From positions 196,727 to 260,726 of the forward strand of contig JAGWFT010000001.1 in the NCBI GenBank assembly GCA_028867755.1: DNA of 64,000 nucleotides. Direction: 5' to 3'. The DNA is from Nitrososphaerota archaeon. Lineage in GTDB: Archaea; Thermoproteota; Nitrososphaeria; Nitrososphaerales; Nitrosopumilaceae. The notes below the pieces were generated by a model, which was not told the DNA's origin, ran no database searches, and saw only the letters and a list, made by a program, of their open reading frames with translations. Positions 9,679 to 23,311 of this stretch are shown piece by piece (the first letter of the stretch is position 1; each line of letters begins with the position of its first letter). Made by a program: the position numbers and the translations under genes.

Positions 9679-10076
9679 TTTATTTATTGCCTGTCATTCC
9701 AAAACTAACGTATTTAAGGTTTTGCTTGAATCGTTTTGACAATTCAAAAGTTGTAAAATATTTTTAAAAAATATTTTTTATTTCTAGAGAATATATGAGA
9801 TGAAAAATATTTTAAAATTAACAAAACGAAAAAAGATTGTTCTCAAAAAGAGAAAATCATTTTCAAGTTTTAATCATTACAAGAAATTCAATAATATGTA
9901 AACTTGAATTAAATTCCCTTTACGATATTAGTACATACTAGTTAAAATTTTTACAATTAATCTCATATTAAGGTCGAAAATATATAACTTTAATAGAAAA
10001 TTCTGCCAATTTTACTAATTTAACTTATAGTTAAACCTTTTTATTTATGTTAACCGAAATTCTTATAAGATATAAT

Positions 10077-10991
10077 ATGACACGCGAATCTTTCGGTTCT
10101 GGCGGACGTTGTCCTCGTTGTGGAAAAGGTCCAATGGTTACAGATAGCACCACAGGTGAAATGTTTTGTGGTGGATGCGGATTTGTTATGACAGAACGTG
10201 TTGAGGAATCTGGACCAGAATGGAGATCATTTTCTAAAGAGGAACATGAAGATCGAAGTAGGACAGGAACTCCAACATCACTTGCAATGCATGATATGGG
10301 ATTAGCAACAATAATTGGTCCTGCTGACAAAGATGCATCAGGAAAACCACTTTCTGCATCTATGAAAAGTACAATTGAGCGACTTAGAACTTGGGATAGC
10401 CGAAGTCAAGTTCATGAACCAGTAGATAGAAACTTTAGACAAGCTTTCAGTGAGCTTGATAGACTAAAAGACAAACTTGCATTATCAGATGCAGTAATCG
10501 AAAAGACTGCATACATCTATCGAAAAGCACTTGATAAAGGGCTTGTTAGAGGAAGATCAATTCCTGGACTCGTAGCTGCTGCACTTTATGCAGCATGTAG
10601 AGATACTGAAACTCCTAGAACTCTGACCGATGTTGCAAGTGGAATCAACATTAAAAGAAAAGATGTTGCACGATGCTATAGACTTTTACTCAGAGAACTT
10701 GATCTCAAGATGCCTGTAGTCGATCCAATAAAGTGTGTAGCAAGAATTGCAAGCAAAGCTGGATTAAGTGAAAAAACAAAACGAAAGGCCCTACAAATTC
10801 TAAAAGATGCCGCAGAGATTGAAATTTCTGCTGGCAAAGATCCAATGGGACTTGCAGCTGCTGCTCTGTATCTCTCTTGTGTAATGAATGGAGAGAATAA
10901 GACACAGAAAGATGTTGCACAAGCTGCTGGAGTAACCGAAGTAACAATTAGAAATAGATACAAGGGATTAAAAGAATCCCTCAAGCTCTAA
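10077..10991 (+). CDS. tfb: Transcription initiation factor IIB
   Basis: Zn ribbon CPRC..CGGC, GPEWRSF, two cyclin repeats, GVTEVTIRNRYK. Confidence 0.95.
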   Translation: MTRESFGSGGRCPRCGKGPMVTDSTTGEMFCGGCGFVMTERVEESGPEWRSFSKEEHEDRSRTGTPTSLAMHDMGLATIIGPADKDASGKPLSASMKSTIERLRTWDSRSQVHEPVDRNFRQAFSELDRLKDKLALSDAVIEKTAYIYRKALDKGLVRGRSIPGLVAAALYAACRDTETPRTLTDVASGINIKRKDVARCYRLLLRELDLKMPVVDPIKCVARIASKAGLSEKTKRKALQILKDAAEIEISAGKDPMGLAAAALYLSCVMNGENKTQKDVAQAAGVTEVTIRNRYKGLKESLKL

Positions 10992-11110
10992 ATTTTTTTG
11001 AAAATAATTTTATTTGGTTAAACGATCAATAACGATTGAAAATCATCGAGAGAAAAAATGTGGAGATGCAAAGGATGAAAATGTATCATTAAACTATTGT
11101 AAAACAATTT

Positions 11111-11196
11111 GGGCGTGGCCCTTATCGCAGACTTGCAGAGATTACCTCTTACGATCCACAAAGTGGATTCACATTAAGATCTGCGAAGCCACGCTC
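11111..11196 (+). repeat. ~85-nt structured intergenic element E1 (GCGTGG...CCACGC family)
   Basis: gggcgtggc/gccacgctc closing stem, tcgcaga/tctgcga inner stem, two apical hairpins. Confidence 0.55.
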
Positions 11197-11436
11197 ATTT
11201 GGCAGTAGATTTTATATCCTTCTGCATTAATTTTTATAGAAGATTAAAGTATTTATCATTTTATGCATATTTTTTGTCTTTAAATTAATAATTATTCAAA
11301 TTTTTTTAAAAAAGGAAATAGAGGGGTGTGACTACATATGTCATTTATACAATATTTACAAGAATTAAAAGTCAACAAAAAAACTCGATTACAATTTAGT
11401 CTAGAAAAACTTTAGCGTTTATTAAGACACATAATA

Positions 11437-20226: not shown

Positions 20227-21122
20227 AGCTAGTATTCTTGGGTACATCAGCTGCACAGCCAACAATGGAGCGCGGCATGACATGCATCTGCCTAGTTCTA
20301 GACAAAGAGATCCTGATGTTTGATGCAGGTGAAGGCGCCCAAGTTGCATTTCAAAAGGCCAAGCTTGGATGGAACAAAAAGATGAAGATCTTTGTTACTC
20401 ATTTACATGGAGACCATTGTGTTGGGATTCTTGGCCTGCTGCAGACAATGTCACTACAAAACAGAACAGAATCACTTGACATCTTTGGTCCGCCAGGAAT
20501 TGACGAATTTCTTGCAGCTAACCTGAAGATACTAAACTTTGGTCTTACTTTTCCTGTCAGAGTCATCAAAATAAAAGAAGGCCCTGTTTTTGATGATCCA
20601 GCATATACAATTCATGTTTGTGAGGCAGAACATTCCATTCCAGCCTATTCATACCTCTTTGCAGAGAAGGATAGACCAGGCAAGTTCTATCCTGAGAAGG
20701 CTAAACAACTAGGGGTTCCCGAAGGGGAGCTTTGGCATGAGCTTCAAAGCAGCAAGGAGGTAAAGATCGGTGAGAAGATAATCAGGCCATCTGATGTAAT
20801 GGGTGAGAAAAGATCTGGTAGAAAAATAGGCATATCAGGAGACACAAGACCTACAAAGAAGCTGGAGGAATTTTTCAAGGGCTGTGACTATATCACCTTT
20901 GATTCCACATATTCTGATACATTGCGTGACAAGGCAAAAGAGAATTATCATTCAACATCAGTTGAAGCTGCAGAGCTTGCAAAAAGAGCTGGAGTCTCAA
21001 ATCTTATCCTGACACACTTCTCAGCAAGATATGATGATGCGAAAGAGCTGGTAAAGGAGGCAGAGGCAGTTCATGGTTCTGTGATTGCAGCAAAAGATCT
21101 CATGGAAATTGAGATCAAGTAA
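20223..21122 (+). CDS. rnz: Ribonuclease Z
   Basis: [17 protein letters not shown], exosite [17 protein letters not shown]. Confidence 0.95.
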
Positions 21123-21123
21123 C

Positions 21124-21843
21124 ATGTTGGAACAAATATCTAACAAGCTAAAGCAGGCAGAAAAAATAATCTTTGTTACCGGTGCGGGAATTTCCCAAGA
21201 ATCTGGCATTCCAACCTTTAGGGGTAAAGATGGATTATGGCGAAAATATGATCCCATGAAGCTTGCTACAATAGATGCCTTTTACGAAGATCCAAAGCTT
21301 GTCTGGGAATGGTACGAGGAAAGAAGAAGGAACATACTTGCTGCCAAACCAAACCCGGGACATCTTGCAATAGTGCAGCTTGAAAAGGAAAAACCAGTTC
21401 ATGTATTGACACAAAATATTGATGGCTTGCATCAGAGAGCCGGGAGCAAAAGTGTCTATGAGCTTCATGGAAGTATTATTACAATCAAATGTACAGTATG
21501 TGACTTTAAGGACAAGATATCAACAAGTTTTTCTGAACTTCCGCCTCTATGTAAATGCGGAAATATTCTAAGGCCAGATGTGGTGTGGTTTGGAGAATCT
21601 CTGCCGCAGGATGTTTGGCAGGCTGCTATTTCTCAAGCAAGCTCTTGTGATACCATGATAGTTGTTGGAACATCGCTTGCAGTATCACCTGCAAATCTAT
21701 TGCCAGTTTATGCCAAGCAAAATGGCGCGATATTAATTGAGGTCAATCCAGAAGAGACTCCTATGTCTGGGACCATGGATATTTCGATTCGCTCATCAGC
21801 TGCAAAGGCCTTGCCTGAGCTTCTCACTGTATTTCAGAGATAA
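21124..21843 (+). CDS. cobB: NAD-dependent protein deacylase (sirtuin)
   Basis: TGAGISQESGIPTFRG, TQNIDGLH, ELHGS, RPDVVWFGE. Confidence 0.95.
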   Translation: MLEQISNKLKQAEKIIFVTGAGISQESGIPTFRGKDGLWRKYDPMKLATIDAFYEDPKLVWEWYEERRRNILAAKPNPGHLAIVQLEKEKPVHVLTQNIDGLHQRAGSKSVYELHGSIITIKCTVCDFKDKISTSFSELPPLCKCGNILRPDVVWFGESLPQDVWQAAISQASSCDTMIVVGTSLAVSPANLLPVYAKQNGAILIEVNPEETPMSGTMDISIRSSAAKALPELLTVFQR

Positions 21844-22012
21844 ACTGTAAAAAATTATTCAAAAAAAGCACTGTTCTCATTGAATTGTTATTATCAATAA
21901 AAGAATTATTGAAAATACAATTATTAGTTGTAATAATTATGATCAATTGTTAAATATCATGAAAACGTATAATGATTAATGAAGAAAGACGCAAATTCTA
22001 ACGACTGAATTT

Positions 22013-22098
22013 GCGTGGTCCTGTGAAAAACAGTACATAGTAGGTGCACAAAGGTGCGCAAGTGGCAAGAGAATGCTTTTGCCTATACAGGACCACGC
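22013..22098 (+). repeat. ~85-nt structured intergenic element E2
   Basis: Perfect 12-bp arms gcgtggtcctgt/acaggaccacgc enclosing two hairpins. Confidence 0.6.
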
Positions 22099-22217
22099 CT
22101 TTACATTTTCTAAGTTATTTTAAACAAAATTTCTGTACTGGTATCAACTGTTAGTTCAAAAACTGAAGACTCGTGAAAACAGATTTGACCAGATTGTAAG
22201 GTACAGCTAAAATAGCT

Positions 22218-23150: not shown

Positions 23151-23236
23151 GAGCTCCTGAAGATTTGAGTTTTATCTGATGCAAACAATATCGGATAATC
23201 AAACAAATCTATTATGTTACAACCTCAGGGCCACGC
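23151..23236 (+). repeat. ~85-nt structured intergenic element E3
   Basis: Nested stems cctga/tcagg, agatttg/caaatct, ttatctgat/atcggataa; ends agggccacgc. Confidence 0.5.
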
Positions 23237-23311
23237 TATCACACATTTTCTGATTCATTCTCTAAACAAGGTTTGAACGACAGAAGCATCTTTTTGAGGT
23301 TGTAAGGAATT

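What the first reader, a model, noticed from the sequence alone, without database searches (positions are those of the whole stretch)
11111..11196. Family of ~85-nt structured elements ending in CCACGC (E1, with E2 and E3)
Seen: E1 (11111-11196), E2 (22013-22098) and E3 (23151-23236) are each 86 nt and fold into closed multi-stem hairpins with wobble pairs favouring the + strand. Termini are shared: 5' GCGTGGCCCT (E1), GCGTGGTCCT (E2); 3' GAAGCCACGC (E1), AGGACCACGC (E2), AGGGCCACGC (E3). E1 and E2 both have a CAC-AAA(G)-GTG apical hairpin within a three-way junction. Each lies 90-170 nt downstream of a + strand gene (tfb, cobB, dsrE-like). Interiors differ in sequence. Inference: an undescribed REP/MITE-like or small-RNA family selected for structure, perhaps a 3'-UTR stability element.
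Basis: partly seen in the sequence, partly recalled or inferred. Interest (0 to 1): 0.72.

Follow-up and report, generated by a model that had tools for sequence, protein, structure and literature searches.

The report
Conserved small RNA genes of ammonia-oxidising archaea
Two of the three flagged elements (E1, E2) are real, but they are not repeats or gene tails: they are separate small RNA genes of an undescribed family found in one to three copies in every ammonia-oxidising archaeon of the family Nitrosopumilaceae that was searched, and its function is unknown.

Summary
E1 (11111-11196) and E2 (22013-22098) are real, strongly folding three-way-junction domains. E3 is not a member.

They are not REP/MITE repeats or 3'-UTR elements. 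The genome (a Nitrosotalea, family Nitrosopumilaceae) holds exactly three copies: types A (E1), C (E2) and B (outside the window). Each is a single-copy syntenic orthologue in every same-genus genome searched. A covariance model finds 1-3 copies in 23/23 genomes (order sample) and 19/19 (phylum sample) of the family. It finds none in 127 and 131 genomes of other families.

E1 and E2 are homologous but inverted. E1 is read from the minus strand, E2 from the plus strand. This rests on the closing stem (313 Watson-Crick, 27 G.U, 0 A.C), a TTAAATA box 22 nt before a conserved AUG, and a U-run after the stem.

Each gene runs: promoter, 5' hairpin overlapping a 9-10-codon reading frame from the first base, three-way junction closed by GCGU/ACGC, invariant hairpin resembling a Shine-Dalgarno site, U-tract. 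Length is about 130 nt.

There is no Rfam match and no description in the papers searched. Function is unknown; my best guess is a trans-acting structured RNA whose fold is coupled to translation of the tiny frame. This scan met the same family before, in other genomes.

The parts
11250..11278 (-). Promoter of the type A (E1) gene. It holds a TATA-like box GATAAATA (plus-strand tatttatc, 11250-11257) and a conserved A-rich block upstream of it.
   Evidence: In 42 of 56 distinct family copies exactly 22 nt separate TAAATA from the A of the conserved AUG; in 46 the distance is 21-23 nt. The box matches the tRNA promoters of this genome in form and distance. Sequences are shown.
11195..11227 (-). 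Start of the type A RNA. AUG at 11227-11225 lies at the predicted transcription start and opens a 10-codon frame (MQKDIKSTAK). Its stop codon UGA (11197-11195) abuts the closing stem.
   Evidence: 48 of 58 copies carry an AUG at this model position and a 9- or 10-codon frame that ends 0-5 nt before P1. The stop varies among TAA, TGA and TAG. No third-codon-position signature was found.
11202..11225 (-). 5' hairpin P0 of type A (GCAG..GAU-loop-AUC..CUGC), overlapping the tiny frame.
   Evidence: Outer and inner stems covary across genera, for example GCAG/CUGC against CCGA/UCGG and UCGUUAG/CUAACGA.
11113..11194 (-). P1: 11194-11186 with 11121-11113. P2: about 11185-11176 with 11133-11125. Variable hairpin P4: 11153-11169. 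Invariant hairpin P3 (AGAGGUAAUCUCU): 11137-11149.
   Evidence: R3 hit at 11098-11231 on the minus strand, 105.2 bits, E 2.8e-22. Covariation. P1 pair tally.
11098..11112 (-). 3' tail of type A with a U-run (CCAAAUUGUUUUACA); the likely termination site.
   Evidence: 40 of 56 copies have four or more U within 18 nt after ...ACGCC, against 0.15 for random 18-mers of the same loci.
21930..21956 (+). Promoter of the type C (E2) gene: an upstream block and TTAAATA at 21950-21956.
   Evidence: The motif (..AATTGTTAAATA) and the 22-nt distance to the AUG are the same as in types A and B on their own strand.
21979..22008 (+). Start of the type C RNA: a leaderless 9-codon frame (MKKDANSND, stop UGA at 22006-22008) ending 4 nt before P1.
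   Evidence: Type C orthologues in other Nitrosotalea read MRKDANSDK and similar.
21989..22016 (+). 5' hairpin of type C (ACGCAAAUUC...GAAUUUGCGU). Its last four bases, GCGU, are also the first four bases of P1.
   Evidence: The sequence shows a 10-bp inverted repeat. It is conserved, with a C-G to U.G change in orthologues.
22013..22098 (+). It has a 13-bp closing stem, an A-rich joint, a covarying hairpin (GUGCAC../GUACAA..) and a conserved hairpin GGCAAGAG-AAUG-CUUUUGCC.
   Evidence: R3 hit at 21975-22113 on the plus strand, 79.0 bits, E 4e-16. R2, built from type A on the minus strand, hits it on the plus strand at 40.9 bits, E 1e-7. Orthologue alignment.
22099..22113 (+). 3' tail of type C with U-runs (CUUUACAUUUUCUAA).
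23151..23236 (.). E3. Not a member of the family; at most a decayed remnant. Its 3' side AGGGCCACGC-N-ACAUUUUCU resembles the P1 3' strand plus tail.
   Evidence: No R3 match at E up to 10 with filters off. Not conserved in relatives. Weak fold.

Best explanation
E1 and E2 are two of three paralogous, independently transcribed small RNA genes (types A, B and C, each about 130 nt). They belong to a family restricted to, and so far found in every searched genome of, the ammonia-oxidising family Nitrosopumilaceae.

Each gene contains, in order:
- a conserved archaeal promoter (upstream block, then TTAAATA);
- a transcript that probably starts at a conserved AUG 22 nt after the box;
- a 5' hairpin overlapping a 9-10-codon frame whose stop lies 0-5 nt before the main domain;
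- a three-way junction closed by an invariant GCGU...ACGC(C) stem;
- a U-rich terminator.

The junction holds one variable hairpin and one invariant hairpin, GAGG-nAAU-CUC. This hairpin looks like a Shine-Dalgarno site complementary to the 16S 3' end, GAUCACCUCC.

E1 is encoded on the minus strand and E2 on the plus strand.

Shown: family, copy number, distribution, structure, strand, and promoter and terminator motifs.

Inferred mechanism (low confidence): the folded junction is the working part of a trans-acting RNA, bound through its invariant stem base and SD-like hairpin by a protein or by the small ribosomal subunit. Translation of the tiny leaderless frame opens the 5' hairpin. On terminating next to P1, the ribosome would transiently melt the closing stem. 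The RNA's fold and activity would then follow the cell's translational state.
For: Copy number and orthology:
- The genome has three pattern matches and exactly three model hits.
- All 22 same-genus genomes carry the pattern in syntenic places. This count includes the unpublished genomes G010, G011 and G017; without them it is 19 of 19.

Distribution:
- R3 finds 1-3 copies in 23/23 and 19/19 genomes of the family. It finds 0 in 127 and 131 genomes of other families.
- Named records with the RNA next to tfb: Ca. Nitrosotalea devanaterra, Ca. N. bavarica, Nitrosarchaeum and Nitrosotenuis.

Structure:
- 27 of 35 pairs show changes on both sides.
- 90.6% of cells are paired, against 75% in shuffles and 33-49% with slid partners.

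Strand:
- P1 has 313 Watson-Crick, 27 G.U, 0 A.C and 2 other cells in this orientation.
- The promoter lies at a fixed 22 nt in 42 of 56 copies, and 40 of 56 copies have a U-run, against a background of 0.15.
- The type A minus-strand model hits type C on the plus strand end to end (E 1e-7).

Tiny frame: present in 48 of 58 copies, with stop codons interchanging among TAA, TGA and TAG.

16S 3' end: read from relatives.

Databases: no Rfam family matches on either strand.
Against: - There are no expression data: the transcription start, the 3' end and the translation of the frame are all inferred.
- Minimum free energies do not separate the strands.
- The 5' hairpin has a U.G on the other strand in 12 copies.
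- The frame shows no third-position wobble excess (summed entropy by codon position 6.4, 8.9, 8.0). Its nucleotides are identical across several genera, which points to RNA-level constraint.
- Most Nitrosotalea type B copies lack the frame.
- The alignments used for pair counts were fitted to the model.
- No target or partner has been identified.
Confidence: 0.8

Rival explanations
1. One reading: a REP/MITE-like repeat, or 3'-UTR stability or terminator elements of the upstream plus-strand genes (tfb, cobB, the third gene), all read on the plus strand.
For: The termini look like inverted repeats (GCGTGG...CCACGC), and the elements lie 90-170 nt after plus-strand genes.
Against: - There are only three copies per genome.
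- Each is a syntenic orthologue in every relative, with no empty sites seen.
- Each has its own promoter.
- E1 is on the strand opposite to tfb.
- E3 is not a member.
Confidence: 0.03
2. A tiny protein gene. The product that matters would be the 9-residue peptide (M-x-K-D-...), and the three-way junction would be only a protective 3' untranslated structure.
For: AUG at the predicted start, a fixed 9-10-codon length in 48 of 58 copies, interchange of stop codons, and K-D at positions 3-4 in many copies.
Against: - There is no codon-position signature; position 2 varies most.
- The peptide sequence differs widely between paralogues.
- The frame is lost in most type B copies.
- The junction has invariant sequence blocks (GCGU/ACGCC, GAGG..CUC) that a mere stabiliser would not need.
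Confidence: 0.08
3. A cis-acting, translation-coupled attenuator. Translation of the leader frame would decide whether P1 plus the U-tract terminates transcription or lets it run into what lies downstream.
For: The layout of short frame, strong stem and U-run resembles leader-peptide attenuators. In one set of copies a 349-aa gene follows about 70 nt downstream on the same strand (loci L100, L115, L121).
Against: Type A is convergent with the neighbouring gene in all genera. Type C is convergent with hxlR, and type B with a membrane-protein gene. So there is no consistent downstream gene. The leader does not repeat any one codon.
Confidence: 0.07
4. A member of a known RNA class that Rfam models miss in this lineage: an H/ACA or C/D guide RNA, a tRNA-like RNA, or a riboswitch.
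For: It is present in all members of the lineage in 1-3 copies, as guide RNAs are. It has a closed stem with an invariant base and a 3' tail.
Against: - No ACA box follows the lower stem, there is no two-sided pocket, and there are no GA.AG kink-turn pairs (read from alignments).
- No C or D boxes are present.
- ARAGORN and the Rfam tRNA model are negative.
- A cloverleaf is not possible, because P2 pairs across the whole domain.
- No Rfam hit appears at E up to 10 on either strand.
Confidence: 0.05

Closest known systems
The same family as noted earlier in this scan on other genomes (e1-5201763, e1-2523977): a ~130-135-nt two-domain small RNA of Nitrosopumilaceae
   Same: Same lineage, size, copy number (2-3), own promoter, three-way junction and nine-codon 5' frame. 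My models reach marine genera with end-to-end hits.
   Different: Those are AI notes, not publications. Added here: the acid-soil genus Nitrosotalea, three named paralogue types, the strand test, distribution counts of 23/23 and 19/19 against 0 outside the family, and a test of the frame that finds no codon-position signal.
GC-rich-island small RNAs of AT-rich archaea (the Hgc RNAs of Methanocaldococcus and Pyrococcus; recalled from my own knowledge of Klein, Misulovin and Eddy 2002, not read here)
   Same: Stand-alone, structured, G+C-rich small RNA genes in A+T-rich intergenic DNA of archaea, with unknown function.
   Different: No sequence or structure match: Rfam, which holds the Hgc families, gives no hit. 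The lineage is different. Here there is also a conserved promoter and a 5' tiny frame.
Tan1, an orphan 229-nt ncRNA of marine group II archaea (PMC5069720)
   Same: A lineage-specific, structured, orphan archaeal ncRNA of environmentally abundant plankton.
   Different: Different lineage, length and fold, single copy, and found through expression data. The family here has no expression data in this work.
Dual-function small RNAs that also carry a short reading frame (SgrS/SgrT, RNAIII/delta-haemolysin, SR1/SR1P; recalled from my own knowledge)
   Same: A small RNA with a structured non-coding part and a short conserved frame on the same transcript.
   Different: Those frames encode peptides of 26-43 residues with conserved sequence, and they are bacterial. 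Here the frame has 9 codons, is leaderless, has a poorly conserved peptide sequence, and ends right at the closing stem.

Membership tests
REP / MITE-type repeat | Many dispersed copies per genome | tested here: not met
   Three copies in 1.64 Mb; 1-3 copies in relatives.
REP / MITE-type repeat | Variable presence (empty sites) between close relatives; target-site duplications | tested here: not met
   Each type sits at the same syntenic place in all same-genus genomes. No flanking direct repeats appear in the alignments.
3'-UTR or terminator element of the upstream gene | Same strand as the upstream gene, with no promoter of its own | tested here: not met
   E1 is on the strand opposite to tfb. 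A conserved TTAAATA box lies 22 nt before the RNA start.
Archaeal H/ACA guide RNA | ACA box directly 3' of the lower stem; two-sided pseudouridylation pocket; kink-turn or kink-loop in the upper stem | tested here: not met
   After P1 comes C and then a U-run, with no ACA in types A and B. P1 and P2 are continuous on the 5' strand, with only a 5-6-nt bulge on the 3' strand. No tandem G.A pairs are present.
C/D box sRNA | C box RUGAUGA near the 5' end and D box CUGA near the 3' end, flanking guide segments | tested here: not met
   The family consensus has neither box. Rfam gives only chance snoRNA matches far below threshold outside the element.
tRNA / tRNA-like | Cloverleaf with T-arm and D-arm; detected by tRNA finders | tested here: not met
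   ARAGORN finds only tRNA-Pro in the window. The Rfam tRNA model does not hit. P2 pairs the region after position 9 with the region just before the 3' strand of P1, which excludes a cloverleaf.
Riboswitch (cis-regulatory aptamer) | Lies in the 5' leader of a regulated gene on the same strand; matches a known aptamer class | tested here: not met
   Types A, B and C are each convergent with the next gene. No Rfam aptamer hit. Ligand binding cannot be tested here.
Stand-alone archaeal small RNA gene | Own promoter at canonical distance, oligo-U terminator, and conservation with covariation independent of neighbouring genes | tested here: met
   Promoter spacing in 42 of 56 copies and U-run in 40 of 56; covariation; different neighbours for the paralogues. 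The transcript itself was not observed.
Dual-function RNA with a translated small frame | The frame is conserved as a frame and is actually translated | tested here: inconclusive
   The frame is present in 48 of 58 copies and its stop codons interchange. There is no third-position signal, and the frame is absent in most type B copies. Translation cannot be tested here.

The most novel reading that the evidence does not exclude
The family is a ribosome-directed regulatory RNA special to ammonia-oxidising archaea. A leaderless nine-codon frame loads a ribosome at the very 5' end. The ribosome terminates against the closing stem. The invariant hairpin, which mimics a Shine-Dalgarno site complementary to the 16S 3' end, then engages the small subunit. 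The RNA would thus sense or tune translational capacity, for example by parking ribosomes during energy or ammonia starvation. No RNA of this kind is known in archaea.
Probability: 0.12. Interest if true: 0.85.

Novelty: new variant of a known kind. Interest (0 to 1): 0.6.

Why it matters
Nitrosopumilaceae are among the most abundant archaea on Earth and drive nitrification in oceans and acid soils, yet almost nothing is known about their RNA-level regulation.

This small RNA gene is kept in every genome of the family that was searched. It occurs in up to three paralogues that share a promoter, and it has sequence-invariant structural blocks. It is therefore likely to do something central.

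It gives a concrete, easily probed target (Northern blot, dRNA-seq, pull-down) in organisms that lack genetic tools. The possible coupling of a leaderless mini-frame to a folded RNA domain would also be of general interest for archaeal translation.

For annotation, the result also corrects the strand and the boundaries of these genes.

Tried and rejected
- Rfam at gathering and at permissive thresholds on both strands: nothing.
- tRNA finders: nothing at the elements.
- Reading all elements on the plus strand (model R1). It gave good covariation but left A.C mismatches in the closing stem and no consistent promoter. I dropped it after the promoter comparison and the P1 tally.
- Minimum-free-energy comparison of the two strands: uninformative, 11 against 16.
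- Raw G.U against A.C totals on the first alignment: misleading, because the 5' hairpin was out of register.
- H/ACA, C/D, kink-turn, tRNA-like and riboswitch readings: rejected feature by feature.
- Codon-position test of the tiny frame: no coding signature.
- A first look for the 16S 3' end in the window's own genome failed because the rRNA is not assembled there; I took it from relatives.
- Literature searches for a described Nitrosopumilus or thaumarchaeal small RNA of this kind found none. PMC5069720 reports no thaumarchaeal ncRNA.
- Target prediction was not attempted, because no transcription-start map exists for judging it.

Full report
**What is there**

The three stretches exist as quoted. 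The pattern GCGTGG-N(55-85)-CCACGC occurs twice in the window (E1, E2) against 0.00 expected from 100 shuffles.

| Element | Strand folded | Energy (kcal/mol) | z-score |
|---|---|---|---|
| E1 | plus | -35.7 | -6.1 |
| E2 | plus | -41.3 | -6.8 |
| E3 | plus | not noted | -3.3 |
| E3 | minus | not noted | -1.4 |

For E1 and E2, none of 200 shuffles folds as well. E3 lacks the 5' terminus.

The upstream genes are TFIIB (10047-10991) and Sir2/CobB (21085-21843). The gene before E3 has no Pfam hit. HxlR lies convergent after E2. A GtrA-like gene and a short-chain dehydrogenase follow E1.

**The elements are not repeats**

The organism is an ammonia oxidiser: amoA is present, the genome is 1.64 Mb with 38% G+C. 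Named records with a 96-100% identical TFB are Nitrosotalea, family Nitrosopumilaceae.

The whole genome holds only three pattern matches:
- E1, here called type A;
- E2, type C;
- a third at C24:1207124-1207216, type B, outside the window.

In 22 of 22 same-genus genomes the same three kinds recur, one copy each, at syntenic places. G010, G011 and G017 are unpublished. They are included in that count of 22 and in the exploratory alignments. They were left out of every alignment used for models and pair counts, and without them the count is 19 of 19.

E3's region is not conserved even in the nearest relative.

**Family and distribution**

A broad model (R3) gave these counts:

| Sample | Genomes of the family with 1-3 copies | Genomes of other families with a hit |
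|---|---|---|
| Order | 23 of 23 (14 of 14 genera) | 0 of 127 |
| Phylum | 19 of 19 | 0 of 131 |

These counts describe the genomes sampled. They do not prove absence elsewhere, and the large searches used Infernal's stricter filters.

In the window's genome R3 hits exactly three places:
- type A, 105 bits, minus strand;
- type B, 92 bits, minus strand;
- type C, 79 bits, plus strand.

With filters off over the whole window, only E1 and E2 are found. E3 gets no hit at E up to 10.

In named records (Ca. Nitrosotalea devanaterra, Ca. N. bavarica, Nitrosarchaeum, Nitrosotenuis) the RNA lies after tfb on the opposite strand. It was not found next to tfb in Nitrosocosmicus or Nitrososphaeraceae loci.

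**Structure**

Across 38 sequences from many genera:
- 90.6% of cells are paired, against 75.0% in shuffles and 33-49% with slid partners;
- 27 of 35 pairs show changes on both sides;
- no shuffle of 500 reaches any observed measure.

The alignment was fitted to the model, which favours the structure. But the raw sequences show the same exchanges. For example, the variable hairpin reads AUCCCAC/GUGGGAU, UUCCGCC/GGCGGAG and UUUCCGAC/GCCGGAAA.

The consensus keeps these blocks invariant:
- the base of the closing stem, GCGU...ACGC, followed by C;
- GCAG in P2;
- the hairpin GAGG-nAAU-CUC.

**Strand**

1. On the other strand this reads as an upstream block plus TTAAATA.
2. In 42 of 56 distinct copies exactly 22 nt separate TAAATA from the A of a conserved AUG. 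The box matches this genome's tRNA promoters in form and distance.
3. Type C has the same promoter and a similar 5' sequence on the plus strand, upstream of E2.
4. The model of type A built on the minus strand (R2) aligns end to end with type C on the plus strand (40.9 bits, E 1e-7). R1 likewise hit type C only on the minus strand. So E1 and E2 are homologous but inverted.
5. In this orientation the closing stem has 313 Watson-Crick pairs, 27 G.U, no A.C and 2 other cells.
6. 40 of 56 copies have a run of four or more U within 18 nt after the stem, against a background of 0.15.

Points against, or neutral:
- Folding energies do not separate the strands.
- One pair of the 5' hairpin is U.G on the other strand in 12 related copies.

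I take the strand as settled for the junction domain, pending RNA data.

**The 5' part**

| Observation | Result |
|---|---|
| Copies with AUG at the predicted start and a 9- or 10-codon frame ending 0-5 nt before P1 | 48 of 58 |
| Stop codons among 29 distinct 9-codon frames | TAA 15, TGA 11, TAG 3 |
| Summed entropy by codon position 1, 2, 3 | 6.4, 8.9, 8.0 (no third-position excess) |
| Mononucleotide shuffles of codons 2-9 that stay open by chance | 57% |

- The 30 nt of the frame are identical across several genera, while the hairpin formed by the same bases covaries.
- Most Nitrosotalea type B copies lack the frame.

So a frame of fixed length is kept, but not a peptide sequence. Translation is plausible, about even odds, but it is not shown.

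**Mechanism**

Shown: an independent gene unit (promoter, folded RNA, U-tract), paralogues sharing a promoter, and sequence-invariant blocks within helices.

Inferred:
- The RNA acts in trans through its folded junction.
- The invariant hairpin resembles the Shine-Dalgarno sequence. The 16S 3' end of relatives is GGAUCACCUCCU. Type B reads GGAGGUAAUC, and GGAGGUGAUC in one species.
- A ribosome terminating 0-5 nt from P1 would have to open that stem.

I therefore favour a translation-coupled, possibly ribosome-directed regulatory RNA, at low confidence. The rivals (peptide gene, attenuator, missed known class, repeat) are weighed in their own sections.

**Comparison and novelty**

- No Rfam family matches.
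- The papers searched describe no such thaumarchaeal RNA.
- This scan had already met the family twice in other genomes. It had also noted types B and C of this genome without follow-up.

It is a new family of a known kind, the archaeal stand-alone small RNA, with an unusual leaderless mini-frame. Its function is open.

Noticed in passing
window 23151-23250: E3's 3' side (AGGGCCACGC, a few bases, then ACAUUUUCU) resembles the 3' strand of the closing stem plus the U-tail of E2. Its 5' side looks like a mutated partner. It may be a decayed copy specific to this strain.
   Followed up: partly
window 11258-11278 (minus strand) and 21930-21949 (plus strand); all family loci: A conserved block of the form GTAAAAAWTCAT lies about 8 nt upstream of the TTAAATA box in nearly all copies and paralogues. 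It could be a binding site for a shared regulator.
   Followed up: no
L099-L116 and other loci of other genera, between tfb and the RNA: A conserved ~145-aa reading frame ending ...INPNGN..G.VSV... sits between tfb and the RNA and is convergent with it. Nitrosotalea lacks it, and there the RNA follows tfb after a 120-nt spacer.
   Followed up: no
L033, L039-L043 and related loci (Nitrosotalea type A), just 3' of the closing stem on the RNA strand: A subclade has an extra small hairpin with a GNRA-type loop (CACU-GAAA-AGUG) between the closing stem and the final U-run.
   Followed up: no
L001:494-649 (minus strand), G000 type B: In this genome the type B RNA is spanned by a 46-51-codon open frame (46 codons from the conserved AUG). 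The frame is not conserved in other species, so it is probably chance.
   Followed up: partly
whole genome G000: No 16S rRNA gene is assembled in this otherwise 99.95%-complete genome.
   Followed up: yes
window 21989-22016: In type C the 5' hairpin and the closing stem compete for the same four bases (GCGU), so the two cannot both be fully formed. This may be a built-in switch.
   Followed up: no
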